DNA from: Prorocentrum cordatum
Lineage: Eukaryota
Assembly (NCBI GenBank): GCA_963575745.1
Contig: CAUYUJ010000183.1
Coordinates: 1 to 64,000, forward strand
DNA length: 64,000 nt
Direction of reading: 5' to 3'
Made by a program: the position numbers and the translations under genes. The notes under the pieces were generated by a model that had not been told where the DNA came from, made no database searches, and worked only from the letters and a program-made list of their open reading frames with translations. Shown piece after piece: positions 15,108 through 58,557 of the stretch. Every line of letters begins with the position of its first letter. Within the stretch, counting starts at the first letter, position 1.

Positions 15108-17706
15108 ATAAAACCTGTTCTCTTCTTCAATGATTAACGCGTGGACCACAACTTCCTGGGGTTCCCGGCGCACCTGGGGCGCATCGAGTGTTGCAGAAGA
15201 TTTTGGGGCCAACGAGGGCGCCAGGAGGCCGAACGGACGGTCCAAGACGGCATCAAAGTCGCCGAGTGCACGCTCCAAGACGGCTCAAAGCAGGGCCCTA
15301 AGACGGCCGCAGAGGCCCCCAGAACGGCCCAAGAGGCAAAATCAGGGATTTCCCGTGAGGTTGTCAATGTGTTTGCGGTTCTCGACTTTTCGAGCTTCCG
15401 GCGCTCCAAGACGTCCCAAAGAGGCCCCCAAGACGGCCAAGAGGCCCCCAAGAAGGCCACAAGACGGCCCAAGAAGGCCCCAAGACGGCCCTAGAAGCGC
15501 CCAAGGCGGCCCTAGAAGCGCCCAAGGCGGCCCAAGTTGGCCACAAGAGAGACCCAAGAGTGGGAGCCCGAACCAACAGTTCGAGCTTCCGTCCCAAGAT
15601 GCTCCCAGGAGGCCCAAAGAGCCACCCAAGAGGCCCCAAGGAGACCTCCAAGACGCCCCACGGGGCCCCAAAAAAGAGCATCCTAAAGGCCCCCGAGAGA
15701 CCTCCCGCGACATCCTAACGAACAGCCTAGAGGCCTATGACCCACAACCCAGGCACGGTGGCAGGATGGGTCGAAGGCCATTAGATATGTGGTGTGAGAT
15801 ATACGGTGTAAGTTATGTGGTTTCACCTACGTCGTGGTCTAATCGATGTGGTGTCAGCAATGTGGTGCAACGTGTGCGTTGTAAGCTGTGTGGTATAAAC
15901 CAGGTGGGTGCGGTCTGCGTGGTGTGAGCTCTGTGGTGCAAACTTGTATCTGTGGTGCAAATCTAATTGGTGTAAGATGGACGCCATGCGCCGTTGAAGC
16001 TACGTGGCTCAACCTAAGTGTGGTGCGAGCTACGACGCGTGAGCCATGCGGTGCAGCCGCTGTGATGTGAGCTGTCCGGTGCACGCACGGTGCGGCCACG
16101 GGGCGGCCACGGGCGACGGCGTGGCGAAACCTTGCCGGCTTCGGTGGCCCATCCAGCGCAAGATGCGGCCACGAGGCGGCCACAGGCGATCCCGTGGCGA
16201 ACACCTCCCTGGAGCCGCCCAGCGCACGAGGCGGCCGCGAGGCAGCCACGGGCGACAACGTGGAGAAGTCCTCGCTGGACCCATCCGAATCCAATCCTCT
16301 AATTAGGGGTGCAAACCAGAGCCCCCAAGTGCAAGCACTATTTTTTGGGGGTCGGAATAGCGGAGTTATTGCCTGGCACGAATCCGCCCGCGCTGGTAAC
16401 GACCCCGCGGCTGGCCGCGGGGGCGCCCTCGCTCGGCTGGTCGGCCGCGCGCTGGCCGACCCGCGTCCGCCTCCTGCTCGCGTCGTGTGGTGCGGTGCCG
16501 TGCCGTGCTTCCTCCGCCTGGTACTAGGGCGGAATATAAATACCGTGCCGTGTGTCGGGTTTCGGCCCTCCGCCCGCTGGGGCTTCGTTCGGCCCATAGT
16601 GGCTTCGTTCGGCCCATAGTGGCTCCGTTGCGGCCCATAGCGGCCTGCTGCGTTCACTTGCCCAATGGGGCCCTCTCCTCAGGTCCTCGCTTTGGACTCC
16701 CCCGGTCCGCCGTGACCTCGCGCCCAGTGGGGCCTCTTCCCTGGTCCATGGCGGCCACTTGCCTTCGGGTCCACTGCGACCACGCCCGCTGGGGTCCCAG
16801 GTCCTGGGTGGCTCAGGGGAGCTTGCTGCGTTGTGCCCCTTCGTGGCCCGTAGTGGCCATCAGCTGACGTGCAGCTCTCCTCTCGTCCTCCTGGCGCGTC
16901 GGCGTGCAGGCGCGCGGGCTTTCAGCTGGCGTGCAGCTCTCGCCGGTCGCGCGGGATTCCTGCGTGCGCCCCGTGGCGCTGAGCTTGCGTTGGCGATGCT
17001 TGCCCTCTTGCAAGCTGACCCTGTTGTGGGCGCGAAGTGGAGTGAGATCCAGTTCAAGGGCGCGGTTGATTTGAAGGGGAACTGGGACACACAAATAAAT
17101 ACACACAAATAAAAATATCCCCCATATTTTCCCATATTTTCTGGGTTTTTGTCTTCCCCCCCACTTCCCATATTTTCCCATATTTTCTGGGAATCGAGGA
17201 TTAATTGTGTCTGTGTGTTTCTTTTCCTCCTGATGATTGCCTGGCAGCCAATGGGCTGATGACAGCGGCCTCCCCCCGGTCGGCGACGACCGACGACGGG
17301 GAGGACGACGACGTCGACGAGGTGGCGGACGGTCGGATCGAGACGGATCCTGGTCGGGGCGGGTCGGGGCCCGGGGCCGCGGAGAGAAAGCGAAGGAGGG
17401 ACGGATCGACGACGAGATGCCGAAATCCCCCGGGACCCCCCTGGAGCCACCAGGGATCTCGGAGGGCGCCCAGAAACCGAAACAGGCAGAAACAAAACAT
17501 CGGAAGCCGCCGATGAGCACATCAAAACAAACAATCACCAAACATCTGTCTCCAGACCGCTTCCAGGGTCCATCCGACGCAGCTGTTCGCCCTGGATCGA
17601 TTTCCGGCGGCCCCGGGGCCCAGAAGCGGCCTCCAGGGGCCGAACATAACGAAAAACCTTCTCGAATCTCGACGCCTCGATCGTCGAACGACGCCTCGAT
17701 CGTCGA

Positions 17707-17773
<67 letters not shown>

Positions 17774-17892
17774 CGCGGCCAGGGCCGTCGCAACCTCGAC
17801 GCCCTGGGCCCCCGCCGCGGGTGGCCCTGCTCCTCGTTCCTCCCCCTCTTCCCCCTCCTCTTTCTCCCCCTCCCTTTTCTTCTCTTCCAACG

Positions 17893-18304
17893 CAGACCCC
17901 CTCGAGTAATGAAAAAATCACGACGGGAGGTTTTTCCTAATTTTCGGCCTCCGGGGGCCCTCGCCGGACCTCGGGACCGTGAAAAAACGACTCAGGATGC
18001 AAAGCCGGTCCAGGGGAATGGGTCGAGACCTCCAGGGGTCGACGTAATGAAAAAATTAACAGGGGATGTGTCGACCCCTATCCCAGGCTTCGTGGGGTTT
18101 CCAAATGGACCAGAAATTTGGGGCCCAACCCTGGGATATACGATGGGGGGGGTGTCCATGCTCGACAGGGGTGCGTCCGAATAGCCCCCTCGGGATGTAT
18201 CCCAAGATTCCTCCCCTTTTCTGAGCGACCAAACTTTTCTGGCGGAAGTCGGGGATTGGGGGAGAGAAATCGCCTGCGAAAAATCATGACGTCGGGGGTC
18301 TGGG
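17893..18304 (+). mobile_element. MITE family A-related element with an extra ~230-bp internal segment
   Basis: Shares the AAATCACGACGGGAGG...GGGACCGTGAAAAAACGACTCAGG core; ends CAGACCCC / GGGGTCTGGG. Part of the internal segment recurs at ~28800-28880. Confidence 0.6.
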
Positions 18305-18339
18305 AACGCAGACGGGGCGCCCAGCGTCGCAATCGAACT

Positions 18340-18675
18340 GAACTGGACCGGTCGGACCGAACCGAACGGGACCGGTCAATCGAATCGAGCCGCCCCGGCT
18401 CCTCCTCCTCCTCCTCTTCCTCCTCCTCCTCCTCCGAGACATCGGCATCGAACGGAGGGCAACGAAATCGGATCGGCTCGGGTCGGAACCGCTCCTCGAC
18501 GGCGATCTGGCCGGAACAAGACCGAACCGGAACAGGAACCGGTCCGAACCGGAAACAAAAAATAGACGCACCGAACCGAACCGAACCGAACCGAACCGGA
18601 AGATTACGACACCGAACCGAACCGAACCGAACCGGAGGCACTTCGGAACCTAACCGAACCGAACCGAACCGGAAC
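18340..18675. repeat. (GAACC)n pentamer-rich repeat
   Basis: Direct reading (CCGAACCGAACCGAACC). Confidence 0.85.
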
Positions 18676-18692
18676 TTTCCTGTTCCTCTGCC

Positions 18693-18729
18693 CTTGATCG
18701 CAAAATCCTTGAGCCAAAACGGCTACGGC
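18693..18729 (-). other. Genomic dinoflagellate spliced-leader copy (18708-18729, one mismatch) followed by a degenerate second relic
   Basis: Minus strand reads GCCGTAGCCGTTTTGGCTCAAG-GATTTTGCGATCAAG; DinoSL is DCCGTAGCCATTTTGGCTCAAG. Confidence 0.85.
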
Positions 18730-19226
18730 AAGTGCAAGCACTGTTTGGGGGACACAAAAACAAAAAACAACCCAGTGGCACCCCGCCGAGTTGCAACGAC
18801 TCAAAGGTGCGACCTGTAAAAGGGGCGAGCAGCTCGATCGACACGCGCGCCCGCGTCGCCCGCCAACCGCTCCTTGAGATTGCCCCTCCCCCACCCCAAC
18901 GCGCCTCAGGTCGCCGCTGCTCGCAGTTTCCAGAGGCCTCGACGGAGGCACGGGGCGGGGGGAGGCTGTAGGGATGGAGAGGGGGAGGGGAGGGAGGCAC
19001 CCGTGCGAGCGGAAAACCGACTCGGTGAGCTGGCCCAATGGCGCTTCACGGCGCACCCACAGCTGAAGCCGAAGCCCTGAAGTGCATAGGAAAACAGTCG
19101 TTGAGCGGTGCTGCAGCCTCCCCGGAGCACAGGTCACCCCCCAGAAGCCGATAATACGAGTCCACGAGAAGCTGTAAAAAACTACTGGGCCAATGACTAT
19201 ATAGATATATATATATATATATAAAA

Positions 19227-21000: not shown

Positions 21001-21179
21001 CCCCCTCCCTTCGCCCTACTTGCCCTGCGGGACTCACACTTGCATACGGCTGGGCCCTTCGCCAGGATAAGTTGCTTCTTCTCCGCGCGGCCTGACCGGT
21101 CCTCTCTCTTCAGAGCTCTTTTGAGCTCACCTGCAGCACAGGCCACGCCAGGACGAGAAAGCCCTGAAAGGAGGATAGG

Positions 21180-21366
21180 ACCCAGACGCCCGACGTCATG
21201 ATTTTGGCATAACGTGGGCCCTCAGAGGTCTCGACCCATTCCCCTGGACCGGTTCTCCATCCTGAGTCGTTTTTTGACGGTCCCGAGGGCCGGTACGGGC
21301 CTCCAGAGGCCGAGACTCAGGCAAAACCTCCCGTCATGACTTCTTCATTGCCCCAAGGGGTCTGGG
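21180..21366 (-). mobile_element. MITE family A subfamily copy
   Basis: Ends CCCAGACGCCCGACGTC / GGGGTCTGGG; internal CCTGAGTCGTTTTTTGACGGTCCCGAGG shared with other family A copies. Confidence 0.65.
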
Positions 21367-36590: not shown

Positions 36591-36608
36591 GGAGGAAGGG
36601 AGGAGGAG
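36591..36608. repeat. Candidate target-site duplication (3' side) of the atpC retrocopy
   Basis: GGAGGAAGGGAGGAGGAG, identical to 38341-38358, which abuts and overlaps the SL; low complexity lowers certainty. Confidence 0.6.
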
Positions 36609-36871
36609 CGCAGCACAGGGCCCCTTACACACGGCCCGAGGAGACAGAGCCCCTCCGACTTCTGGTGACCACCGCTCGTCCACTGCACGCTAGCATAAAA
36701 ATCCCCTTGCACGGTCACGCCGAGACGAGCTTCCTGCAGTCACTGCAGAACTGCGTAGGCCATCCCAGTGCCTCCCAGGGCCTCCCCCCTGCCGAGGTGG
36801 AGGAGCGATTAGATCAAACAAAGACAGCAGAATACACCCTCTTGTGAATCCTGCACCCGGAGCGCGGACGC

Positions 36872-36952
36872 TCACTTGAGCGTCTCCCCGGTGAACCTCC
36901 AAATTGTGCTGTCGGCGTCAAGGATTGGGGGGGTCCGGAATGCCGAACTCCT
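36872..36952 (-). pseudogene. Degenerate tandem duplicate of the last ~27 codons and stop of atpC
   Basis: Reads EFGIPDPPN/fs/LDADSTIWRFTGETLK* versus the genuine EDGSIPDAPVSPDLDSDIRMFTGDTLK*. Confidence 0.75.
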
Positions 36953-36974
36953 GGACGCTCTAGCGCCCGCGCGC

Positions 36975-38243
36975 TCACTTGAGCGTGTCGCCCGTGAACA
37001 TCCTGATGTCGCTGTCGAGGTCCGGGCTCACGGGAGCATCCGGGATGGAGCCGTCCTCCAGCTCCGTCATGAAGTCCGCGCCCACGGTGTCCTCGTTGTC
37101 GAACTCGCCCAGCATGGTTCCGCTGCGCGTGCCCTTCTGCTCGACGCAGAGGCATCCGGCGGTGATCTCGCAGAGCTCCTGGGTGATGGCGGCCTGGCGC
37201 TTCTTGTTGTAGAGGATGGTGAGCCTCTCCCCGAGGTCTTTTGCGTTGTCCGTGGCCGCCTTCATCGCGGTCATGCGGGACCCGAGCTCGGAGGCCTGGG
37301 CGTCAAACAACATGGAGAGCAGCTGCGAATTCAGGTACAGCGGCAGCATGGAATTCAGGATAACCTCCGGGGGCTGGTCGAAGATCACGTCAGACTCGAT
37401 CTCCTTGGCATCCACCTTCTTCACCTTCTCCTTCTTCACGGACAATTTGCCGTCCTCGGAGGTAAGGGCGAAGGTCTCGTCGTCAGGATCCTCGATACCA
37501 GTGGGGCTCAGCGGCAGCACGGTGCGGACCTGCGGTTCGTTCAACAGCAGGTTAATGAACTTGGCGTAGATAACCTCCACCTTGTCCACCTCTCCCGACA
37601 GGAAGAGGTTCCTGAGCTCGTCGCCAATTTCAGCGATCGCGGCGGACGTAATGGAGTCAGGCATTCTGATGAAAGTCCCGGTGTAGTTCAGCTTCACCTC
37701 CTTCAGCTTGGTGTTCAGACCAGACAAAGCCTTTTTGCCGACGATGATCATCTTCGGCACGATACCCTCCTTGTTCAGGTCCTCAATGCGAGCAGCCGCC
37801 TTTTTCATGATCCTTGCGTTGTAGCCGCCGCAGAGGCCGCGATCGGATGTGATGAGAACGATGCCGACGTTGCTGACCTTCTCGGGCACGCGCAGCATCG
37901 GCAGCTCCGACTCCAGGCCGCTGCCCTTCAGCCTCTTGACCAAGCCCTTGATCATGGAGGACAGCTCGTCGCTGAATGGCCTTGCCTTCTCAACGCCAGC
38001 CTGCGCGCGGCGCACCTTGGCGGCGGCGACGAGGCGCATGGCCTCTGTGAGCTTGCCCGTCTTCGCAACGGACGCGATGCGCTCCTTCATCGCCTTGTCG
38101 ACGGCATTGGTCTGCACAATCGGCTTGCGACCTGCCCTTGCGGCTGTGCTGCCCACAAAGCCCGTGATGTCGCGGAAGTGCCAAAGCGAGGCGAGCAGCA
38201 GGCAGCCTGCAAGGGCGATCGCGGCGGATCCTCTGCGAGCCAT
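36975..38243 (-). CDS. atpC: Chloroplast CF1 ATP synthase gamma subunit, nuclear-encoded, plastid-targeted, intronless retrogene (422 aa)
   Basis: Motifs KERIASV..TGKLTEAMRLVAAAKVRRAQ, ITSDRGLCGGYN, LPLSPTG..DDETFALTSEDGKL (plastid/cyanobacterial insert), ASELGSRMTAMKAATDNA and YNKKRQAAITQE. N-terminal signal peptide followed by an FVG-type transit motif. ATG at 38243 lies ~50 nt downstream of the SL relics. Confidence 0.96.
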   Translation of the reverse strand: MARRGSAAIALAGCLLLASLWHFRDITGFVGSTAARAGRKPIVQTNAVDKAMKERIASVAKTGKLTEAMRLVAAAKVRRAQAGVEKARPFSDELSSMIKGLVKRLKGSGLESELPMLRVPEKVSNVGIVLITSDRGLCGGYNARIMKKAAARIEDLNKEGIVPKMIIVGKKALSGLNTKLKEVKLNYTGTFIRMPDSITSAAIAEIGDELRNLFLSGEVDKVEVIYAKFINLLLNEPQVRTVLPLSPTGIEDPDDETFALTSEDGKLSVKKEKVKKVDAKEIESDVIFDQPPEVILNSMLPLYLNSQLLSMLFDAQASELGSRMTAMKAATDNAKDLGERLTILYNKKRQAAITQELCEITAGCLCVEQKGTRSGTMLGEFDNEDTVGADFMTELEDGSIPDAPVSPDLDSDIRMFTGDTLK

Positions 38244-38292
38244 GACGCAACGAAGTCGAGCGGATCGCGGGTCGACCCTGAAACCCCGTGGT

Positions 38293-38343
38293 CTGAGCAA
38301 AAGATGCTTGAGCCCAAATGGCTTGAGCCAAAATGGCTACGGA
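38293..38343 (-). other. Three stacked spliced-leader copies upstream of atpC
   Basis: Minus strand: TCCGTAGCCATTTTGGCTCAAG (perfect, 38322-38343), CCATTTGGGCTCAAG (38307-38321), CATCTTTTGCTCAG (38293-38306). Confidence 0.95.
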
Positions 38344-38964
38344 GGAAGGGAGGAGGAGGAGGAGGAGGAGGAGGAGGAGGAGGAGGAGGAGGAGGAGGAG
38401 GAGGAGGAGGAGGAGGAGGAGGAGGAGGAGGAGGAAGGGAGGAGGGAGGATGAGAATGATGATGATGATGTTGATGATGAGGAGGAGGAGGAGGAGGGGA
38501 GGAGGAGGAGGAGGAGGAGGAGGAGGAGGAGGGGGAGGATAGGAGGAGGAGGAGGAGGAGGAGGAGGCGGAGGAGGAGGAGGAGGAGGAGATGAGGAGGA
38601 GGAGGAGGAGAGGAGGAGCGGGAGGAGAGGAGGAGAGGAGGAGGGGAGGAGGAGGAGGAGGAGGAGGAGGAGGAGGAGGAGGAGGAGGAGGAGGAGGAGG
38701 AGGAGGAGGAGGAGGAGGAGGAGGAGGAGGAGGAGGAGGAGGAGGAGGAGGAGAGGGAGGAGGGGGGGAAAGAGAGAGCGATCGAGAGAGGGGGGTCAGG
38801 CACGCGGCGGGTTCACGGGCGACGGAGGCACCACGGCTCAAGAGCACAGCGGAGGCACCACGGCAAGGCTGCGCGCCACCACGCGCGTGCGAGGCACGCC
38901 TGGGCAGCCGGCACGAAACCTGTTGTTGTGAGGAGCGTGCCGGGATAGGTGGCGGGGACGCATG

Positions 38965-40262: not shown

Positions 40263-40601
40263 GCAAGGAGGCAGCGGGAGGAAGTAGAACGCGGGGCACC
40301 GTCTCTTCAAAACGAGGACCCAACACCACAGGATGGTTGGGAAAAAAATCGTCGGGATATCCGTTGTGAGCCTTCGGCCATGTCCGGCGGATTCTTTACA
40401 CGGCACGTTCTCGGAATGGTCGCATGCTCTCACATTCCCCAATCAGTGCTTGCACTGAAAGGGGTCCTAGCGAAAATTGAAAAATTTGGCGAAAATTTCC
40501 CGCCGATCTTGTTTCTGGGCCGATTCCGGTGGGCTCCCGCGTTCCCGGGTTCCCGGTCGATCTCTTTACCGATCCCACTTCGAAGCATCCACTGATGGGG
40601 T

Positions 40602-40788
40602 ACCCAGAGATGCGACGTCCTGATTTGTTCAGGACGGCGTCCCTGCAAGTCCCGACCCCTTCCCTGGGACCGGCTTTTCGTCCTGAGTTGCTTTTTCACG
40701 GTCCCGAGGCCCGGCGAGGGCCGCCCGGGGCCCAAAAAAGTAAAAAACCTCCCGTCCTGATTTTTTCACGACGCGATCATGTCTGGGT
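40602..40788 (-). mobile_element. MITE family A (~187 bp, TIR ACCCAGACATG)
   Basis: Ends ACCCAGAGATGCGACGTC / GACGCGATCATGTCTGGGT; homologous to 49675-49860, 50478-50664 and 58380-58557. Confidence 0.8.
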
Positions 40789-45437: not shown

Positions 45438-46494
45438 TAGCCGACTCTGGGCCACGGGGCGGCGCTGCACCTCGGAGCGCCCGGCGCGCGGCTCGTCGCC
45501 GCACCGACCCGGCACGCAGCTGCCGTAATTACCCAGGCCTGCGCCGTCCTGCTGCTTGCAGCACGGCGCCCCTGGCAGTCCCGACCCGTTCCCCGGGACC
45601 GGTTGCTCGTCCGGAGTCGTCTTGTTGACGGCCTCGCGAGGCCCGGCGAGGGCCCCCCCGGGGGCCGACAGTGGGTCAGAGCCTTCCTTGCTGATGTTTG
45701 GTTTTACGACGCGACCACGGCTGGTCCCCCCCCCCCCCGGCGCTGCCCCCCGATCCTCGGCCGCGCCCCCCGAGGCCGCGCCCGCGGCGTCGGGCCTGCG
45801 GGCCGGGCGTCTCGGAAGCGCCTCGGGCGCGAACCCCCCCGGGGGCGAGGAGGCTCGTCGCCTCGGGAGCTCTCCGTGTGGCCTCCGCCGCCTCTCTCGG
45901 GGAGGGGGCCCCTGGCGCCGCGGGGCTTTCTCTCGGAGGCCCCCGCCGCTACGGCCGGACGCGGCCAGCTGGGCGCGCGGAGGGCGCCTCGGCAGTTCTG
46001 TGCTCGGGCGCTCCCCCCGTGGCGAGGAGGCTCGTCGCCTCGGAGGCTCCCCGCGAGCGTCGTCATGGGGGAGGGGGCCCTCGATGGGGCCTTCGGAGGC
46101 CCTCGCCGCCACCTCCGGAGGCGACTCGGGGAACCTGCCAGGCGAGCGTCTTGTATGCAGCGTCTCGACACTGGGCGGAACGGGGGGGGGGAAGGGGGGC
46201 GTCTGGCTCTGGACCTCTGCTGAACGCGACTGTTTGCAGCAGTGCGTCGCCATGGGGGAGACTCCACCTGCTCGAAACAGGCGGCAAAAACAGCCGAGAT
46301 CACTTCACGGGGGGTGGGGGAGGGGGGGTGCGAGGGCCCGCGCCGATCGGCAAACGAATGAATAAAAAAACGCTCACCAGGATGGATCCCGGGAGGTGGC
46401 TGGGCACTGACTTCCAGCGGGCACTGCCCACGCGTCCCAAACATCCGACGCATTGTCGTTCCATGCGTGGCTCTCCAGAGGCAGGAGAGCCCAG

Positions 46495-47861: not shown

Positions 47862-47961
47862 NNNNNNNNNNNNNNNNNNNNNNNNNNNNNNNNNNNNNNN
47901 NNNNNNNNNNNNNNNNNNNNNNNNNNNNNNNNNNNNNNNNNNNNNNNNNNNNNNNNNNNNN
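47862..47961. other. Assembly gap (100 N)
   Basis: Run of N. Confidence 1.
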
Positions 47962-49674: not shown

Positions 49675-49860
49675 CTCAGACATGCTCGCGTCGTAAAAGA
49701 AATCAAGACGGAAGGTTTTTGACAATTTTCGGCCCCGGGGGGCCCTCGCCGGGCCTCGGGACCGTCTAAAACGACTCAGGGCGAAACACCAGTCCTGGGG
49801 AAAGGGTGGGGACTTCCAGGGGCGCCGTCCTGAAAAGCTCAGGACGTCGCATGTCTGGGT
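49675..49860 (+). mobile_element. MITE family A copy
   Basis: CTCAGACATGCTCGCGTCG...AGGACGTCGCATGTCTGGGT. Confidence 0.8.
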
Positions 49861-50477
49861 CCACAAATCCTTAAGAGCTCACGACGTACGGCGGGGGCGT
49901 TGGACAAGGAAACCTTGGATAAGGAATCCAGAGTCTGGAACTGGAAGCACTCGGAAACTCCATTGCGGATCGGCAGTGGGCATCGCCGCCGCCCTCATCA
50001 GATAAGAAATTCCTCAAGGTCTGAAGCCTCCTGGGCACATTCCGTAAGCAATACCCCCACCGTATGAGTTCTTCCGAGTCTTGGAGGGTACAGACAGACA
50101 GACAGACACTCAATGTCGGGCAGCGCCCGGCCCTGCCCCTGCGCGGGGCCTGGGCGGATGGCACCGCAGTGCCTCGGGTGGACTCGTGCACGAAACCGCC
50201 CTCAAGCGGCTCGTCCACAACTCCGTATTGCAAGCGTGTGTAATCCAGACCCCGTCAGGGGCGTCACAACCTGCAGCACGCAAAAAAATACCAAATCGTC
50301 AGCCCAGCGTTGTCGAGGTCTCCCGGGCAGCCTCGCGCCTGCGGGCGTCCGGCTCCTCCGGCGGAGAGGAGTGGCTCGCCACAACGGACTCCCAACAGCG
50401 GAGGAGGCGCGTCGTCGCTGCCAGCGCTCCCCCCTCCCGAGCGCATTCCGCGGTCCGCGAGAAGCGCGGTCCCCATG

Positions 50478-50664
50478 CAGACATGATCGCGTCGTAGACA
50501 AAAATCAGGACGGGAGGTGTTCGGCTATTTTCGGCCCCGGGGGGCCCTCGCCGGGCCTCGCGGGACCGTCAAAAACGACTCGGGACGACAACCCGGTCCC
50601 GGGGAAAGGGTTGGGACTTCCAGGGGCGCCGTCCTGAAAAGATCAGGACGTCGCATGTCTGGGT
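50478..50664 (+). mobile_element. MITE family A copy, 15 bp upstream of the LINE target site
   Basis: CAGACATGATCGCGTCG...AGGACGTCGCATGTCTGGGT. Confidence 0.8.
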
Positions 50665-50679
50665 CCCTCTCCTGCACCT

Positions 50680-50696
50680 CCCGGCAAGGGGAAGTC
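50680..50696 (+). repeat. 5' target-site duplication of the SL-capped LINE
   Basis: CCCGGCAAGGGGAAGTC versus CCCGGCAAGGGAAAGTC at 57785-57801 (16/17); the last two nt overlap the SL. Confidence 0.9.
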
Positions 50697-50716
50697 CGTA
50701 GCCATTTTGGCTCAAG
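50695..50716 (+). other. Perfect DinoSL at the 5' end of the retroelement
   Basis: TCCGTAGCCATTTTGGCTCAAG, 22/22 match. Confidence 0.97.
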
Positions 50717-50883
50717 GTTTTGGTTTCCCCTGGGAACAAAGTGGATACCGCTAGTCCGCGGCCAGCTTTCATCCTTCGCCTGGTTCGCCCCAGGCAGAGC
50801 GGTGCGTGGTCCGCCCCACGCATCGCAGCTTGCGGCACGGCCTCCCAGCACAGGAGCCCGTGGCCCAGTCTCCTGCGAGCGCC

Positions 50884-51933
50884 ATGGCTCCTCGGAGGGT
50901 TGCTGCTGACGAACCGTGGATATGCAAGTCGTGTGTCCACTCTGTCACTGGCAAGCCGTGGTTCAATGCAAGAGGTACGTTGTACTGCAAGCAGTGTCAG
51001 CTTCATAAGTCGGTGGTGTTCAAAGAGTACAAACGAGGTAAGGTCCCTAGTGTCCATGCTGCGGGATCCAAGAGCCCCAGCCAAGTGGACAAAGGCCTCG
51101 CCGCTCGGTGTGCACAGCTCGAAGAACAGGTCAAGAGGCTCACCGCAGAGAAGGCTGAGCCATCACCTCCACCACCATGGGCGCAGTCACAGCCTGACGG
51201 AGCTGAAGAGAAACGCAAGCGCATCAAGGAGCTGGACTCCATCATGCGCCTGCTCTCCTCCGACAGGGATGCGACGGTGCTGGCCAATTATAAAAAGGAG
51301 AAGGAGACCTTGGAGCGGGAGCTGTTTGATGGACGCCCGATTGAGGACCAGGCTCGATCGCTGGCGGCGAAGCTCCAGCACGCGAGGTCCCACGAGTCCA
51401 GCGTGCGCAGGGCGGTCGAGGAGCAGAGAGCCAAGATCCTGGAGCTGCAGGGACACTTGGACAAGGCTGAGGCCAAGCTCGTGGAGGCGTCCGCTGAGGT
51501 GGTTAGGCTCGAGGAGGACACGCGCAAAGCCATGTCCCAGGCCCGCCCGCCAGAGCAGGAAAGGCCGCCCACGCTCCATGAGATGCTTCCTGGGTTCGCG
51601 GTGTCGGTGGAACAGTTGGGGCGTGTTGCCAGTACTCTGGGCTTGGGGCCTGATCTTACGGCAGGGCTACAAGCTATGGCGGAGACGGTCACCAAGCTGC
51701 AGCAGGCGCCGCAGGCAAAGCCACCCTCGCCCCATGCCCCAGAGCCCCCTGCACAAGAGCCTGAAGATGATGAAATTTCAGACATCGAGATGGGGGAGGA
51801 AGACATGCGGGCCACGCTCAATGCTGCAGGAATCCCTACGGACGAGAACGTCTCCGCCGAGGCAGTCACGGAGAGGTTCAAGAGGTTCCAGCCGACGTGC
51901 ATTGAGGCGTGCAAGAGGGCTCGCAAACAATAG
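50884..51933 (+). CDS. Retrotransposon ORF1 (349 aa): N-terminal C4 zinc finger, long coiled coil, acidic/basic tail
   Basis: GCCATGG start. W-I-C-K-S-C...W-F-N...Y-C-K-Q-C motif; heptad-rich E/K/L/A region (e.g. LELQGHLDKAEAKLVEASAEVVRLEE); C-terminal KRARK. Confidence 0.85.
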   Translation: MAPRRVAADEPWICKSCVHSVTGKPWFNARGTLYCKQCQLHKSVVFKEYKRGKVPSVHAAGSKSPSQVDKGLAARCAQLEEQVKRLTAEKAEPSPPPPWAQSQPDGAEEKRKRIKELDSIMRLLSSDRDATVLANYKKEKETLERELFDGRPIEDQARSLAAKLQHARSHESSVRRAVEEQRAKILELQGHLDKAEAKLVEASAEVVRLEEDTRKAMSQARPPEQERPPTLHEMLPGFAVSVEQLGRVASTLGLGPDLTAGLQAMAETVTKLQQAPQAKPPSPHAPEPPAQEPEDDEISDIEMGEEDMRATLNAAGIPTDENVSAEAVTERFKRFQPTCIEACKRARKQ

Positions 51934-51955
51934 ATTTGCCAGCATCGGGATTGGA

Positions 51956-54900
51956 ATGTTACTCAGTTCTGCAGCAGCAATGGCGGCAAGCAATGATGTG
52001 TCCCCTCGAAGCGGGGTATCAGCTTCACTCGCGACTCCAGGGAGGACTACGGCGTCGGCGGCGAGTACTACACCGCGGGCAAGTGTCTCCTGGGATGTGT
52101 CTGAGGTTATTGGCACGAGTCGGCTACCCCCAGGGAGGCTCACTCGGCTTGCCGAGCAGAGGCCTGAGGCGGAACCCCGTGCATCGTGTACGTCACGGGG
52201 GGCGGCTGCGTCTACGCCATCGGCGCATGTCTCTTGGGATGAGAATGGTATTGGCACGAGCTGGCTACCCTCAGCAATGCTCACTCGGCCTGCCGAGCAG
52301 AGTGCTGAGGTGGAACCCCGTGCATCGTGTACCCTGCAGAGTGCGGCTTCTGCTTCGCAGACGGGGTGTGCACCGATGACATTCTCAGCCCCAGGAGGTA
52401 CGCACTGCTCACCGTCCGTCGACAGCGGGCAAGCAGCAATGAGGACAACTGAGGGCGGAGAGTACCGACCGCGGGAGGCCAGGGGCCCCCACGGCACGCA
52501 CCACTCACCCTCTTCGCCTCGCTGTGAGCCTGCCCCGACATCGGACGGCAGAGGGTACCGACCTACTGGGGCCATGGTGGGATCAAACATGGACGGGGAG
52601 TACGACCCGTTCGAGTTTCTTGACGCAGATCGAGAAGCTGACGACCTCTTCCCCACTATTTGCCCGAACCCCTTGGAAATACGTCAGTCAGAACGCGATG
52701 AGGCTGCAAGTGCAGCCTCTTCATCTCCCTCCGCCCCCGCTGATGAACATTTGGATCTCGGACGTGGTAGCATGAGCGTCGGGTCCGATATATCTAAGAC
52801 GGGCGAGTTGGAGGGAAAATCTTCTTCACCCGCCATTGCGGGAACAATTATGTCGGTGAATGCAGGCTCCTTCGGGCCATTGTTCGACTTCCTGGCTGTT
52901 GCGAAGGCCAAGATCATCTGTGCACAGGAGACGAGGATTGTGGAGTCACGCCTCGGGGAGTTCCAGCACCGCGCCAAGGACCTCGGCCTCCACGGGATGT
53001 GGGCACCAGCCCTGGCGACCAACGCCAGGGGCCCGCAGGCCAATCACTGCGGGGTCGCCATACTGGTGCCCACGAACGTGATGATCACGAAGCCTCCTGA
53101 CGGCGACCCCATCATCTACCCAGGCAGAGTGGTTGCCAGCTTTGTCAATTGGGGCGTCCCTGGGGGGGGTGATTGTGGTCAGTGCATACTTGGTGACGAG
53201 CATTGGGCTGACGGGTGAAAACCTTTCCATTCTGTGGGCCATAGCGCAGAGAGTTGCGACCTGGAGCGCTGCGGGTTTCGATTGGATCTTAGCAGGTGAC
53301 TGGAATTCTGACATAGCAGCTCTGAATGCGAGGAGGTGGATTGAGTCTCTTGCTGGGTTGTCTTACACGCCAGCGTCGGCCACGTGCTGCAAGGAGGACG
53401 GCAAGTCTACGATCGATTACTTCATCGCGTGTGCAAATCTGTCGTCTAAGCTCGGGGCTGCAGTGGTGGAAGATATGTGCGGCACAATACCACCCCCGCA
53501 TTACCCAGTTAGTACCGACCTCCTGGGCAAAGATAGGCCAGCATGGTGTCTCGTGCCAGACGAGCCAAGGGCTTTCCCTGTTACTCCGCCATGTGGGTGC
53601 GCCAGGTTCCCGTACCCGTGGGAGGCAGTGGACCATGTTTTTCTGGAAGTCAAGGAGGTTACAGATTTGGCCCTGCTGTGGGACACAGTCCTGGACGGTA
53701 TCGACTTCGAGCTGGCAGGGAGGTATGACAAGGTTGACAAGGACGCGGCCCCTTTCGTCGGCAGGTCAGGCCCTCCACGTTTCAAGTGGAAGCTGCTGGC
53801 ATGGGAACCTCCGCGTCGGCGCACGCACCGCGAGCCCAAGGTCTATGCTTGGGCGACGGCCAAGAGATGGTGTCAGCATCTCAGGTCGGAGCGGGACCGA
53901 CTGGGCAGGTTTTGTCAACGGTTGCAGTTGGCTTCAGTGGTCTGCCAGCTAACGCCCCTGCAGCACGCCAAGGTGTTGCAGGCCTTCTACGAGGTGGACC
54001 AATATTGCCGCAGGATCGCCCGCGACAGGAAGACATGTCACTACCTTGATCAGGACACCGTAGACTTCCTGCTGCGGGGCCTGGGCATGATCGGCGATGC
54101 TGACTTCGACTCGGGCCTGGACAACATCACGAGGAAGGCCGATGAGGTGCTGAAGGCAGCGGGAGGGGCCTCGGAGAAGGCTTGGCGAGGCTGGGCCAAG
54201 CAGGCTTTCCTGGGTGGGGCCAGTCGGGCCCATGCAGCCTCCAAGGTGCGCGGCAAGCAGGAGCAGCTCAATTTCGACGTGAACGCTCAGCCGTACCTGC
54301 TGGCAAACCACACCCTTGACGCGTGGGAGGGCGCATGGCGGCATCACGACCTTTTGCCCCCAGGGCTGCCGCCAGGCCACGAGAGCTGGCCTGCTCTGCC
54401 CGAGCTCGACCACCAGCAGGCGCGGGCTGCCATTCGCAAGTTTTCGACGCGGACGGCAGCTGGGCCGAGCAGAATTTCACCCAGATGCCTGGACGCTCTG
54501 TCGGACCAAGCGCTCGAGCGCATGGCCAAGATGTTTATGTTTTTCGGTCAGTGGCTGTCCTGGCCTCCTGAGCGGGTTTACAGTGAAATGGTTCGCTTAC
54601 CCAAACCTGACGGGGACACACGATTGATTGTTCTATCTCACGCTTTGGTGCGTATCTGGGGCAAGCTCAGGATACCAGTCTCGGCAGCGTGGCAGGCTGG
54701 CTACCAGCGCGACCAGATGTGGGGCACGAGAGCGGGCCACACGTCGACGGACTCGGCGTTTGATCATAATATTCAGCAGGAGGTTGCGCAGTTGTTGGGG
54801 GAACAGACATGTACGATCTTGCTTGATATGAGCAAGTGTTACGACATGGTGGACCCACATGCGTTGCTCCGAGAAGGCCAGGCTCTGGGGTTTCCACTAC

Positions 54901-57623
54901 GTCTGCTGTGGCTCCTCATTCAGAGCTACCAACAGCCCCGTCGTATAAGGGCCTTTGGGAGTGTATCCAGAGGGTTTCGGTCCTTCCAGGGGATCTTAGC
55001 TGGGTGTACTCACGCTACGTACGTCTTGTACTTGCTTACCTATAGGTCGGTGCATAGGGTCTCGAAGGTCTCCCCCACGGTGACCCCGAGGACGCTCATG
55101 GACGACATTGGGCTCCAACGTACCTCCCAGGACCCCACGGAGGCCAAGTACCTTGCGCTGGCGGCGAGGGGGTTCATCCAGGACTCCAAGGGCCTCGGCA
55201 TGATCTTGAAGGCTTCCAAGTCTGGGGCTGTTGTTGGTTCTCGGAAGTTCTGGAAGGGGGTGCAGCGCCACATGGGCTCCATGAAGATCCCGTACAAAGG
55301 CCACATGAGGAACCTAGGTCACGAGCTCACGGGGCCCAAGGTGATTCGAGGCATGGAAAAGAAGCGTCTCAAACAGCTCAGGGAGAGGGAGGCGAGGTTT
55401 TCCATGCTGAAGTCTGCTGTCGGCAAGGTCGCGACGGCTCTGTGGCGCACAGGCGCCCTCCCATCAGTGGCGCACGGTGCTGCAGTTGCTGGAGTAAGCG
55501 ACGTTGCACTTCGAGAGTTGCGTCTTTTCGCCGCCGTCTTGAACGGCGCGCCAGGTAAATTTAATACTGGTGTGACCGCCTACTTGGTTAGCCACAAGAG
55601 CGATTTCTACGATCCTATTTACCACGCCACTCTAGCCATTGTCATCAAGTTTGCGGAGTGGGTCTGGGACAGGAGAATACCCGACAGTCGTTTACATAGG
55701 GCTTGGGAGGCTCTTCGAGATAAGATTGGCACACTGTCTTGGGCAAATACTCGAGGCCCGATCGGGGCCTGTTGGCTGACCTTACGACGTATTGGGTGGA
55801 ATCTAGTATCTAGCCATATGGTGGCTGATGATGTAGGCAACGTTTTCGATCTGCGAGTTATGTGCCCTGCCGACCTGAAGGTCTTCCCCACTCAGGGGAT
55901 CCAGCGTTGGCAGGACGAGCGGCTGCTCAAGCATTTTTATACTGCTGAGCCTGGCGAGCAGATGTGGCACCGAGGCTTACGTAACTCGGTGAAGAGCATC
56001 AAGTGCGTTCGTAGACTCGGGGCCCTCCAAGCGCACTGGTCGGGAAACCTCCCCATCCCTCAGCTCCAAGATGCCCGCCATAAGGTACCAATCAGGCCGT
56101 GTGCTGCTTGTGGGGCCCAGTCTCAGGGTATTTGGGGCCACGTGCTCTACGACTGCCCCGAGCTGCTCAAGCAGCGCGAGGACTTCTTGGACATCTCAGA
56201 GGACTTGGAGGCAACCAGAGGCATGCTCCTGAAGGGGGGCGAATGGTATGATGGGCGTCTGGCTTGGGACTCCAGTTATCTGGTCTTCGGGGTCCCTGCT
56301 CCTCCTGTGGGTATTCCTGGGCTCGACACTATAAGCACAGAAGTTCTTCTTTGGGGCGATACCGACGGGCCTTGGGGCCCCAAGAGCTACACCGACGGCT
56401 CGGGCCTCGCATCCAGCGTTCCAGAGACTAGGCGGTGTGGGTATTCATGCATCCAGCTGGACCCCAAGACTCTTTTGCCTGTCCGTGCTGTGTACGGACC
56501 CCTGCCCTTCTATGTGCAGACTGTTGGCCGTGCTGAGAGATATGCGATCAAAATGGGTTTGGAATTTCATCCAGATCACGAGCTGTTTGTGTCTGACCTC
56601 CTGGGACTGGTTACCGAGGGCAACTCCTGGGACCAATCCCTCCAGCACGGCCGAGGCAAGCACGCCAGGATATGGCGAGAGATTTTTCAGGCTGCGCAGC
56701 GTCGGGTACTTGAGTACCCTGTTCGTTTTGAGTGGACTCCTGCACACCGTGACATCGACAGTGTGCTGGAGAATCCTGAAGAGGTGGATAACTGGCTCGG
56801 CAATGCCTGGGCTGACTATTTCGCCAAGGCGGGTGCGGCGCACCACATGATCGCCAACACGGTTCCCCAGTCGCTCTCGGAGGCCCTGAAGGTCCATAAG
56901 GCCACGTTGCAGTTTGTGTCTTGGGCGTGCTTACGGGTTATCGTCTCGGAGAGCTGGGGCCGAGGTCCCCCACCACCTGTCCAGGATCCTGAGGCTCGTG
57001 AAATCCTGGGGCAGCCAGTCGTATTCGGACGGGGTTCTGACCATGAGCTTTGGTGGTGCAAGAGGCTCAACGAGCACAGGTGCAGGAGTTGCGGGAGATC
57101 GGCTCGATCGGACTCGACCCTAGCGTGGCTTAGGACGGGGTCGGGAAGGAGATGTGAGCCCTCTAGCCTCCAGAGGGTAGCCTGTGCGGAATGGTTTAAG
57201 AATTCGGTGGAGGTCTGGGTCAAAGTGTCGGACCCCCGCGTCGCCCCGTCGCAGGTGATTGTCGCGGAGTTTCTTGGGGAAGGGCCTTCAGAGGCCTCGG
57301 AGGGTCCCCTTCCTGGGCCCACGGACCCTCCCCAGGAGCCTGCCGTAGGCGAGGTTTCAAACAGTTCGGGGTCGAACGAGTTCATTGCCGAACTTGCGGC
57401 ATTGGGCCATGACGTTTTTCGTGTGAATTCAGTCTACTGCTGCCGCAGGTGTGCGGGCACGACGACCCTCGAGACGTCACGGAGCGTTCGGAAGCTCCGT
57501 CGTCCCTGTGCTGGGCTCTCAGAGAATCCGAGCACGAGGGCTAATCAGCTGGGGTTGATCGACAGGATCTTCCACGGCCGACCAGGGCGCCCCAAGCGCC
57601 CCGAGGGCAAGGCGCAGACGTAA
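51956..57623 (+). CDS. Retrotransposon ORF2 (APE endonuclease, reverse transcriptase, CCHC zinc finger, RNase H, C-terminal Cys/His motifs), split by one extra G at 53162-53169
   Basis: APE: IMSVNAG, ICAQETR, GVAILV, AGDWN, TIDYFI, PHYPV. RT: LPKPDGDTRLIVL, LLDMSKCYDMV, GILAGC, LMDD, RNLG. Zinc finger CAAC..H...C. RNase H: YTDGS, RAE, FVSD, PAH, GNAWADYFAK. Start uncertain (51956 or 52850). Confidence 0.9.
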
Positions 57624-57784
57624 CGTGTCTCGCCCTCCTGGGAGCGGTTTTGTGGCGTCGGTTTTCCCTGGCCCCCGCCTGCCCTCCCAGTTCATAATAC
57701 TTCCGCCGCGTTGCGGCCCTCAGGGTCCCATCTGTTCCTGAGGCGTGTTCGGATCGGACGCGCTCTCGGTGGCCCTCACCCTCA

Positions 57785-57801
57785 CCCGGCAAGGGAAAGT
57801 C
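57785..57801 (+). repeat. 3' target-site duplication of the SL-capped LINE
   Basis: CCCGGCAAGGGAAAGTC, 161 nt after the ORF2 stop. Confidence 0.9.
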
Positions 57802-58379
57802 GGCTTCAGGACAATGCGCAGATGCACGCTGGAGTCGGATGTACCCTCACAGCGCGTCTCCAACGCTCCCAGCGTCTCCTCGGACGACGAAGACGAAGCG
57901 CAGAGCAGTTCCCGTTTGGGAAGAATTCAGGACGTCGCATGTATGGGGGAGCCAGGTGTCGACCAGGGCCAGGACGAACACACATCCCTTGAAGGGCGCT
58001 CCGGATCGCTCTGCAGGGTATTCCGGAGCGCTCTGAGAAGGCCGCGGCGCCCGAAGCGTTCTCCAGAGCCGCCGGATCTCAGAGATTCCCGATGCGCCCT
58101 CGCCCAAAGTTATCCTCGTCCTGGCTCCGTCGTACAGTGGGGCCGGCCGGGCTCCGTGACGGGGCCCTGGCCGAGCCTGGCTCGGGCATGCCCGGGCTCG
58201 TGCGTGCCCAAGGCGTTCCCTGGTCGTGGCCTCTCGTCCGCTCGAGACCGCTCAGAAGTGTTGGTCGAGGCGGGTGGGGGCGGTGGGTCGCGCCGCATCG
58301 CTGACGCATCGGCGGTCGGGCTCGACTCGGAGCCCGATTCTCCCCATCCCGACTTCGGCGACGCGGCGCGATGCTCCGA

Positions 58380-58557
58380 CCCCAGACATGCGACGTCCTG
58401 ATTTCTCCACGACGGCGTCCCTGGAAGTCGGGACCGCTTTTTCGTCCTGAATCGTTGCTTGACGGTCCCGAGGCCCGGCGAGGGCCCCCCCCTGGGTCGA
58501 ACATAGCTCAAAACCTCCCGTCTTGATTTTTTACGACGCGAATAATTATGTCTGAGT
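58380..58557 (-). mobile_element. MITE family A copy
   Basis: CCCCAGACATGCGACGTCCTG...TATGTCTGAGT. Confidence 0.75.

What the first reader, a model, noticed from the sequence alone, without database searches (positions are those of the whole stretch)
50680..57801. Full-length LINE-like retroelement that begins with a trans-spliced dinoflagellate spliced leader
Seen: a perfect 22-nt DinoSL sits exactly at the 5' junction, between the left TSD and the 5' UTR. The element has ORF1, an APE-RT-RNase H ORF2 and a matching right TSD (16/17). Established: DinoSL is added to mRNAs by trans-splicing, so a genomic SL marks a reverse-transcribed mature RNA. Inference: this element's RNA is trans-spliced and copied to the cap end. 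It could therefore do without an internal promoter, being excised from read-through host transcripts by trans-splicing (possibly at the AG inside its own integrated SL) and regenerating a precise 5' end each cycle. It looks recently active, and I do not know of a characterised dinoflagellate family with this layout.
Basis: partly seen in the sequence, partly recalled or inferred. Interest (0 to 1): 0.92.

Follow-up and report, generated by a model that had tools for sequence, protein, structure and literature searches.

The report
Dinoflagellate LINE copy starting with spliced leader
A young jumping gene (LINE) in a dinoflagellate genome begins with the 22-base leader that these cells splice onto their messenger RNAs, so its RNA was processed like a host message before being copied back into DNA; this is real and neat, but only one copy could be examined.

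Summary
A perfect 22-nt DinoSL lies at 50695-50716. It directly abuts a 17-nt target-site duplication (16/17 identical; 50680-50696 and 57785-57801). These enclose a 7.1-kb non-LTR retrotransposon with ORF1, APE, RT and RNase H, a 3' UTR and no poly(A).

Two corrections. ORF2 in this assembly is split by a 1-nt frameshift in a G8 run (53162-53169); public contigs with one G fewer keep the frame open. The first two SL bases overlap the duplication.

The SL lies inside the duplication, so it was on the RNA that was reverse-transcribed. The most likely source is ordinary SL trans-splicing of the LINE mRNA. An unspliced SL-RNA chimera is less likely: only GT matches the conserved GTACA start of the SL intron.

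No other copy's 5' end or RNA read could be obtained.

The layout is not unknown. SymbioLINEs share APE-RT-RNase H, duplications and no poly(A), and Hydra TE transcripts are known to be trans-spliced. I found no paper describing LINE copies that start with DinoSL. Interest is moderate.

The parts
50680..50696 (+). Left target-site duplication (17 nt). Its last 2 nt (TC) overlap the first 2 nt of the SL.
   Evidence: (D15): 16/17 identical to 57785-57801. Control: 3 of 20000 random 17-mers.
50695..50716 (+). [quoted passage not shown]
   Evidence: exact match, expected by chance 0.00.
50717..50883 (+). 5' UTR (167 nt), beginning GTTTTGGTTTCCCC. It holds no SL relic.
   Evidence: In one search the best local SL match scores 12, and 1502 of 2000 shuffles reach that score.
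50884..51933 (+). ORF1, 349 aa. N-terminal CxxC...CxxC motif and charged, coiled-coil-like middle (both read by eye). No known family.
   Evidence: ORF. (no Pfam family at E<=0.01). (no usable Atlas hit).
52108..52358 (+). Internal tandem duplication (two units of about 110 nt, 81% identical) in the low-complexity stretch between ORF1 and the APE domain.
   Evidence: D1.
51956..53169 (+). ORF2 part A (frame 2). 51956 is the first in-frame ATG after the ORF1 stop; the true start is not known. The APE N-terminal half lies at about 52850-53165.
   Evidence: Its alignment to P0002 is read by eye.
53162..53169 (+). G8 homopolymer where the reading frame shifts from frame 2 to frame 0.
   Evidence: table 4: one letter left out here in X1 (depth 47.1 of 73.6, 1 contig) and X2 (3.12 of 6.42). 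With one G fewer the frames join.
53170..57623 (+). ORF2 part B (frame 0). APE C-half (about 53223-53441), RT (54600-55235), RNase H (56322-56894), Cys-rich C-terminus, stop at 57621-57623.
   Evidence: Open frame 53085-57620.
57624..57784 (+). 3' UTR (161 nt) ending in (CCCTCA)2. No poly(A).
57785..57801 (+). Right target-site duplication.
   Evidence: D15.

Best explanation
This is a young copy of an APE-type non-LTR retrotransposon (ORF1, then ORF2 with APE, RT and RNase H), inserted by target-primed reverse transcription.

Its template RNA carried the 22-nt DinoSL at its 5' end, and the reverse transcriptase copied that RNA to, or within 2 nt of, its end. The SL was most probably added by ordinary SL trans-splicing of the LINE transcript at an AG just upstream of G50717, as happens to host mRNAs. 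The element's mRNA therefore gets its capped 5' end the host way.

Shown: the SL is inside the TSD; the domain set; the element is multi-copy.
Inferred: that trans-splicing, not another route, put the SL there.
Open: whether all full-length copies start this way, and whether the integrated SL is reused as the splice acceptor in the next cycle.
For: - Perfect SL abutting a 16/17 TSD that recurs right after the 3' end.
- RT, APE and RNase H. No long terminal repeats.
- The element has the same G+C as the window, 0.60.
- Two other SL sites in the window also have direct repeats abutting the SL. One is the ATP-synthase-gamma retrogene: an 18-nt perfect repeat at 38358-38341 and 36608-36591, whose last 3 nt are the start of the SL. 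The other is the SL site at 18728(-): an exact 14-mer found again at 16339. Copying SL-capped RNAs to their 5' end with TSDs therefore recurs in this window.
- Only GT is shared between the sequence after the SL (GTTTT) and the conserved dinoflagellate SL-RNA intron start. That start is GTACA, read from probe dinoSLa/s (14 nt of SL plus 5 nt of intron) in PMC3101222.
- Further copies exist. In one search table 8, X1 records 1 and 2 cover 51009-51289 with 9 and 35 differences. A version with one G fewer keeps ORF2 open (table 4).
- Relatives are many: 3367 cluster representatives at E<=1e-3 and 180 at E<=1e-30. The nearest named ones are from Prorocentrum cordatum, whose LINEs are reported as young, Kimura 0-10 (supplement 1 of PMC10666404).
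- In Hydra about 30% of TE Iso-Seq reads carry an SL (PMC12220107, passage).
Against: - Only one copy was seen. No other copy's 5' end could be fetched.
- No RNA evidence.
- The SL is followed by GT, as a splice donor in an SL RNA gene would be. F. kawagutii SL-gene introns are diverse and U-rich, e.g. GUUUUC (PMC6616646), so an unusual SL RNA is not excluded.
- There is no SL relic after the SL. If the source copy also began with a genomic SL, the internal AG behind published relics was not the site used.
[quoted passage not shown] In contrast, Song 2017 found 'RNA-dependent DNA replication' enriched in the retrogene bouts (PMC5585692).
- None of 138 DinoSL sites in IMG/VR loci is followed by a relative of this LINE. 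Those contigs are AT-rich and virus-like, so this says little.
Confidence: 0.7

Rival explanations
1. The SL is now a hard-coded, inherited part of the element's 5' UTR. It was captured once from a trans-spliced RNA. An internal promoter starts transcription at the first SL base, so each RNA begins with an SL-like sequence without new trans-splicing, and all full-length copies start with an SL and never gain relics.
For: - No relic follows the SL, which fits inheritance better than repeated splicing at the internal AG.
- LINEs commonly carry internal promoters. L1Tc Pr77 gives unspliced transcripts in another SL organism (PMC1874656, title and abstract start only).
- Genome-encoded DinoSL placed 37-50 nt in front of ORFs occurs in AT-rich giant-virus-like contigs, so parasites of these hosts can hard-code the SL.
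Against: - No promoter can be tested here.
- The SL is perfect (22/22) while the TSD already has a mismatch, though 22 nt is too short to weigh.
- An RNA that merely begins with the SL sequence would lack the SL RNA's own cap modifications (general knowledge, recalled).
Confidence: 0.15
2. Template-switch chimera. At the end of reverse transcription the RT jumped from the LINE RNA's 5' end onto an SL RNA, or onto the 5' end of another SL-capped RNA. This would resemble human U6-L1 chimeras (recalled). The LINE RNA itself was never trans-spliced.
For: The SL is followed by GT, the donor dinucleotide of SL RNA genes. U-rich intron starts exist in F. kawagutii SL genes.
Against: - The conserved dinoflagellate SL-RNA intron begins GTACA, and the probe built on it detects dinoflagellate SL RNAs. 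Here the sequence is GTTTT.
- The following 167 nt run without a break into ORF1.
- A jump that copies exactly the 22-nt exon of another mRNA and nothing more is unlikely (inference).
Confidence: 0.08
3. One-off by-product. The canonical element has a longer 5' UTR with its own promoter. This copy arose from a transcript that was trans-spliced at a cryptic AG inside that UTR, so SL-bearing copies are a 5'-shortened minority and are dead on arrival.
For: - Nothing here shows that other copies start at G50717.
- SL retrocopies of ordinary genes are common in this window.
- Depth in run X1 rises about two-fold towards the 3' end, as with 5'-truncated LINE copies (table 2; depth is not copy number).
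Against: Contigs with a variant of the very first UTR bases (G inserted after 50718, one base missing at 50724) occur in 3 of 4 runs (table 4). This hints that the UTR start is shared by other copies. The hint is weak, because generic SL-bearing contigs can align there.
Confidence: 0.2
4. Site-specific insertion into an SL RNA gene (as with SLACS, CZAR and NeSL, recalled), or an assembly or chance artefact.
For: A scaffold gap (N run 47862-47961) lies 2.7 kb upstream, and a homopolymer discrepancy lies inside the element.
Against: - The whole SL is inside the TSD.
- The sequence after the right TSD (GGCTTCAGG) is not an SL intron.
- The endonuclease is APE-like, not REL-like.
- Chance expectation for the SL is 0.00, and for the TSD 3 of 20000.
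Confidence: 0.02

Closest known systems
SymbioLINE / SymbioLINE-Dnmt of Symbiodinium (de Mendoza et al. 2018, PMC5890265; passages and a search of 3 supplementary files)
   Same: ORF1 plus an ORF2 with Exo_endo_phos, RVT_1 and RNase_H. Flanking TSDs, UTRs on both sides, no poly(A) tail.
   Different: ORF1 here has no DNMT or any other Pfam domain. That paper mentions no spliced leader at the 5' end. RT relatedness to SymbioLINEs could not be tested because no sequences were available.
Dinoflagellate SL-bearing retrogenes ('recycled cDNAs', Slamovits and Keeling 2008, as cited in papers read; Song 2017, PMC5585692)
   Same: A genomic DinoSL at the 5' end of a reverse-transcribed RNA. Examples with TSD-like repeats lie in the same window.
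   Different: Here the retrocopied RNA encodes the machinery itself (RT, APE, RNase H). There is a single SL without relics.
SL trans-splicing of TE transcripts in Hydra (PMC12220107, passage)
   Same: TE RNAs use the host's SL trans-splicing (about 30% of TE Iso-Seq reads).
   Different: That is RNA-level evidence in an animal. The passage read does not report genomic TE copies that begin with the SL.
L1Tc/ingi Pr77 of trypanosomatids (PMC1874656 and PMC8190864; titles and abstract starts only)
   Same: LINEs living in a host whose mRNAs are all SL trans-spliced.
   Different: L1Tc carries an internal promoter and gives unspliced transcripts, which is the opposite solution to the one inferred here.
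SLACS/CRE/CZAR and NeSL (SL-gene-specific LINEs); R2 5' processing by a self-cleaving ribozyme; human U6-L1 chimeras (all recalled, from no call)
   Same: They link LINEs with SL sequences, or define the LINE RNA's 5' end by RNA processing of a co-transcript, or add a small RNA to the 5' end by template switching.
   Different: This element is not inserted in an SL gene and has an APE-like, not a REL-like, endonuclease. No ribozyme was looked for. The sequence after the SL does not match the conserved SL intron start.

Membership tests
APE-type non-LTR retrotransposon (LINE) | Reverse transcriptase domain | tested here: met
   Pfam RVT_1, E 1.6e-7, 31.7 bits against a cut-off of 29.6.
APE-type non-LTR retrotransposon (LINE) | Apurinic-like endonuclease N-terminal to the RT | tested here: met
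   Weak for this sequence alone: Pfam E 0.0094, below cut-off, and PDB exonuclease III E 0.0021. Relatives P0002, P0004 and P0007 carry PF03372 and were aligned with this sequence.
APE-type non-LTR retrotransposon (LINE) | Target-site duplication and no long terminal repeats | tested here: met
   16/17 TSD. The largest direct repeat is an internal 110-nt tandem.
APE-type non-LTR retrotransposon (LINE) | Poly(A) or simple-repeat 3' tail | tested here: inconclusive
   No poly(A), only (CCCTCA)2 at 57773-57784.
APE-type non-LTR retrotransposon (LINE) | Several diverged copies in the genome | tested here: met
   tables 3 and 8: contigs over the same internal stretches differ from the window by 0-15%. 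The counts are not copy numbers.
SymbioLINE (de Mendoza 2018) | APE, RT and RNase H in ORF2; TSDs; no poly(A) | tested here: met
SymbioLINE-Dnmt | Cytosine methyltransferase in ORF1 | tested here: not met
   ORF1 has no Pfam family at E<=0.01.
SymbioLINE (de Mendoza 2018) | RT groups with SymbioLINE RTs in a tree | not testable with these tools
   No SymbioLINE, Repbase or Dfam sequences are available. The protein libraries carry few names.
SL-gene-specific LINEs (SLACS/CZAR/NeSL; features recalled) | Insertion inside an SL RNA gene, with the SL intron downstream | tested here: not met
   The whole SL is inside the TSD. The right flank is unlike the GTACA intron start.
SL-gene-specific LINEs (SLACS/CZAR/NeSL; features recalled) | Restriction-enzyme-like endonuclease C-terminal to the RT | tested here: not met
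   APE-like domain N-terminal to the RT. The C-terminal part contains an RNase H fold followed by a Cys-rich tail.
Dinoflagellate SL retrocopy | Genomic DinoSL at the 5' end of an intronless reverse-transcribed unit | tested here: met
Dinoflagellate SL retrocopy | SL relics from repeated cycles | tested here: not met
   No relic in the 167-nt UTR. Compare the retrogene at 38342-38300, which has relics.

The most novel reading that the evidence does not exclude
A LINE family whose life cycle runs on SL trans-splicing. Every full-length copy carries the SL. The SL's terminal AG acts as a portable splice acceptor, so any read-through transcript through a new insertion is cut and capped exactly at G50717, and no internal promoter is needed. 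The same machinery, which copies SL-capped RNAs to their 5' end and makes 14-18-nt TSDs, would also be the long-sought source of the abundant SL-retrogenes of dinoflagellates.
Probability: 0.25. Interest if true: 0.8.

Novelty: new variant of a known kind. Interest (0 to 1): 0.55.

Why it matters
It is unknown which reverse transcriptase makes the very many SL-tagged retrogenes in dinoflagellates. Reviews lean towards LTR elements (PMC6050394).

Here a LINE has demonstrably copied an SL-capped RNA, its own, to the 5' end with a TSD. Two SL retrocopies in the same 64 kb show similar flanking repeats. This makes the LINE hypothesis directly testable by comparing TSD length and target motifs genome-wide.

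It also raises a second testable question: how does a LINE keep a defined, translatable 5' end in a host with weak promoter control? The options are host trans-splicing or a hard-coded leader.

Tried and rejected
**Searches for other copies of the element**
- No whole genome is held for the window.
- The scan's earlier notes gave nothing.
- A 22-mer from the 5' UTR found nothing in genome contigs.
- ORF1 found no relatives in JGI metagenomes.
- An ORF2 profile found one 1.3-kb 3' fragment in metagenomes (L001), nothing in IMG/VR, and one 3.5-kb distant RT fragment in a MAG (L002). None reaches a 5' end.
- The first profile, A1, was too diverse to search with.

**Sequencing runs**
- No RNA holder was listed.
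- Four runs were laid as contigs. The shown tables hold no row for loose ends at 50695 or 50717 and no empty-site joint (50696 to 57802). Most rows were not shown, so nothing follows for the 5' junction.
- Run X6 (kind unknown) covers only the 3' half. That could be a 3'-biased RNA or 5'-truncated DNA copies. I make no claim from it.
- The joint 50560 to 57924 in X3 (1 contig, side 22) lies in flank repeats and is not an empty site.

**DinoSL sites in IMG/VR**
- Of 138 distinct sites, 0 are followed within 7 kb by a relative of this LINE, and there is no LINE relative in the 1.29 Mb fetched. Those contigs are AT-rich and virus-like, so this does not test dinoflagellate nuclear LINEs.
- The MAG behind L002 has two SL-like sites, neither in front of a LINE.

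**Other checks**
- Rfam around the SL gave only chance-level hits.
- ORF1 had no Pfam family and no Atlas hit.
- A search for an SL relic in the 5' UTR found none.

**Literature**
- Seven searches found no paper describing LINE copies that begin with DinoSL.
- Zhang 2007 (PNAS) and Zhang 2009 (MBE), which hold SL RNA gene sequences, are not held.
- Table S23 of PMC10666404 (dinoSL-bearing transcripts per gene model) was too large to read. It may bear on whether RT gene models have SL transcripts.


Full report
**What is there**

The window is G+C-rich (0.60). It holds four DinoSL-like sites. The one in question, 50695-50716 (+), is a perfect 22-nt leader; the chance expectation for the 21-mer is 0.00 in 100 shuffles.

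Immediately 5' of it lies CCCGGCAAGGGGAAGTC (50680-50696). This recurs as CCCGGCAAGGGAAAGTC at 57785-57801, 16/17 identical (repeat finder family D15). Of 20000 random 17-mers from the window, 3 reach 16/17 in the 400 nt around the 3' end. The last two bases of the repeat (TC) are also the first two of the SL. So 20-22 nt of SL belong to the insert, and the 5' join may have used 2 nt of microhomology.

**Anatomy of the 7.1-kb insert**

- A 167-nt 5' UTR (50717-50883).
- ORF1 (50884-51933, 349 aa), with no Pfam family and no Atlas hit.
- A low-complexity stretch with an internal tandem duplication (52108-52358).
- ORF2.
- A 161-nt 3' UTR ending in (CCCTCA)2. There is no poly(A).

**ORF2 domains**

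- RT is certain: Pfam RVT_1, E 1.6e-7, above the cut-off.
- The endonuclease is only weakly seen in this sequence alone: Pfam E 0.0094 and PDB exonuclease III E 0.0021. However, relatives covering 59-99% of the query (P0002, P0004, P0007) carry PF03372.
- RNase H is missed by Pfam. The AlphaFold model of 56322-56894 (pLDDT 91.6) matches RNase H1 and retroviral RNase H domains only (best E 2e-6, probability 1.00).
- No long terminal repeats exist.

**A correction: the frameshift**

ORF2 is not one open frame in this assembly. The APE N-half is in frame 2 up to a G8 run (53162-53169), and everything after it is in frame 0.

In public contigs laid on the element, one letter is left out at 53162: in X1 at depth 47.1 of 73.6 (one 237-nt contig with 1 other difference), and in X2 at 3.12 of 6.42 (tables 4 and 8). 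With one G fewer the two frames join, and the reading then parallels the relative P0002 at this point. So either the assembly has a homopolymer error or a near-identical copy has an intact ORF2.

**Is it a family?**

- Contigs over the same internal stretches differ from the window by 0-15%. For example, X1 records 1 and 2 over 51009-51289 have 9 and 35 differences, and X6 record 28 has 0 of 319.
- At many places all runs agree against the window, e.g. 51043, 51044, 51937 and 55120 (table 3). This fits private mutations of this copy.
- The RT-RNase H part has 3367 cluster representatives at E<=1e-3 and 180 at E<=1e-30 among 1.84 billion.
- The nearest named relatives are unnamed proteins of Prorocentrum cordatum, at 33-57% identity and 39-41%. 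That genome's LINEs are reported as little diverged, Kimura 0-10 (supplement 1 of PMC10666404).

**How the SL got there**

The SL lies between the two TSD copies, so it was part of the reverse-transcribed RNA and not of the target. That excludes an SL-gene target. The sequence after the right TSD is also not an SL intron, and the endonuclease is APE-like, not REL-like.

Three routes remain.

(a) *Ordinary trans-splicing of the LINE transcript.* This is what established knowledge predicts for any translated nuclear mRNA of a dinoflagellate. I rate it most likely.

(b) *A template switch onto an unspliced SL RNA.* The GT right after the SL made this worth testing. The conserved dinoflagellate SL-RNA intron starts GTACA. 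I read this from probe dinoSLa/s in PMC3101222, which is 14 nt of SL plus 5 nt of intron and detects SL RNA in dinoflagellates. Here the sequence is GTTTT, and the next 167 nt run straight into ORF1. F. kawagutii SL genes have diverse U-rich introns (PMC6616646), so this route is lowered but not excluded.

(c) *A hard-coded, inherited SL transcribed from an internal promoter.* This cannot be told from (a) with one copy.

**The same process elsewhere in the window**

- The single-exon ATP-synthase-gamma gene (36978-38336, minus strand; Pfam E 1.1e-80) is preceded by an SL plus relics. It is flanked by an 18-nt perfect repeat whose last 3 nt are the first 3 of the SL. That repeat sits in CT-rich low-complexity DNA, so it weighs less.
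- The SL at 18728(-) abuts a 14-mer found again 2.4 kb downstream, after a short A run.
- The fourth site (23503, 3 mismatches) has no such repeat.

So 3 of 4 SL sites look like TPRT-type inserts with 14-18-nt duplications.

'No internal promoter, cut out of read-through transcripts at the SL's own AG, precise regeneration' stays inference.

One point can be sharpened. Published SL relics start with CCA, after the internal AG of the SL (PMC6616646), as in the retrogene at 38342-38300. Splicing there would leave SL plus a 15-nt relic. This copy has no relic: 1502 of 2000 shuffles reach the best SL-to-UTR score. So either the terminal AG was used, or the source copy had no SL, or the SL is inherited.

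I could not fetch any other copy's 5' end. No genome is held, metagenome, MAG and viral scans gave only fragments, and the single read-laying output does not show the junction. No RNA run was listed.

**Comparison with what is known**

- The layout equals that of SymbioLINEs: Exo_endo_phos, RVT_1, RNase_H, TSDs, conserved UTRs, no poly(A) (PMC5890265). This element has no DNMT in ORF1. That paper and its 3 held supplementary files never mention a spliced leader.
- SL-tagged retrogenes are well known.
- Song 2017 noted 'RNA-dependent DNA replication' enriched in the retrogene bouts, an indirect hint. A Symbiodinium preprint saw no overlap between functions of DinoSL-relict genes and of RT genes.
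- In Hydra about 30% of TE Iso-Seq reads carry an SL.
- In trypanosomes, L1Tc instead uses an internal promoter that gives unspliced RNA (listing only).
- Seven literature searches found no description of LINE copies that begin with DinoSL.

I therefore class it as a new variant of a known kind: a SymbioLINE-like LINE with an SL-defined 5' end.

**Verdict**

The core inference, that an SL-capped LINE RNA was copied to its end, is well supported for this copy. The life-cycle model is open. Interest is moderate (0.55). It is expected from first principles and partly anticipated in Hydra. But it is a clean, testable handle on which machinery makes dinoflagellate retrogenes and on how a LINE secures its 5' end in an SL host.

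Noticed in passing
IMG/VR loci L005-L123, e.g. L017:1-14021: The exact 21-nt DinoSL occurs in 119 IMG/VR stretches, 138 distinct sites. Nearly all lie on very AT-rich contigs (G+C 15-27%), mostly giant-virus MAG bins. The SL is almost always preceded by A and by a few recurrent AT-rich motifs such as ATATAAATTTTA and TTTACTAAACCA. In L017, three of the four SL sites lie 37-50 nt upstream of intronless ORFs, and ORFs in that locus encode an NAD-dependent DNA ligase, NADAR and a GT41 glycosyltransferase. This looks like giant-virus-like genomes that hard-code the host's spliced leader in front of their genes. A search for giant virus + spliced leader + dinoflagellate listed 16 papers, none on this by title.
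   Followed up: partly
window 36591-38358 (-): Single-exon ATP synthase gamma gene (Pfam E 1.1e-80). It has a full DinoSL plus relics upstream and an 18-nt perfect flanking repeat that overlaps the SL by 3 nt, with no poly(A). It is a retrogene with TPRT-like hallmarks, though the repeat is in CT-rich DNA.
   Followed up: partly
window 16326-18742 (-): DinoSL with 1 mismatch at 18728-18708, followed by a degenerate relic and CGGTT-type simple repeats. An exact 14-nt repeat abuts the SL and recurs at 16339-16326 after a short A run. This is probably a 2.4-kb retrocopy; its content was not identified.
   Followed up: partly
window 50478-50667, with copies at 49677-49862, 40599-40785, 45531-45723, 58381-58541, 17913-18056 and 21178-21342: A dispersed repeat of about 190 bp lies just upstream of the LINE's target site. 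It has at least 6 further copies in the window at 74-88% identity and very high summed depth in all four runs laid (table 2). It may be a SINE- or MITE-like element.
   Followed up: no
window 50717-50734 and 57646-57671: The start of the 5' UTR (GTTTTGGTTTCCCCTGG) resembles a motif near the start of the 3' UTR (GGTTTTG ... GGTTTTCCCTGG). It could be a shared protein-binding site or chance. It is not among the top repeat families.
   Followed up: no
L002-L004 (handle G001): A MAG labelled as an uncultured Rickettsiales bacterium holds a contig with a LINE-type RT (24% identical to this ORF2) and two DinoSL-like sites. One of them lies in front of a charged, repeat-rich ORF. This points to dinoflagellate DNA in the bin.
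   Followed up: partly
window 47862-47961: A run of 100 N (scaffold gap) lies 2.7 kb upstream of the element.
   Followed up: no
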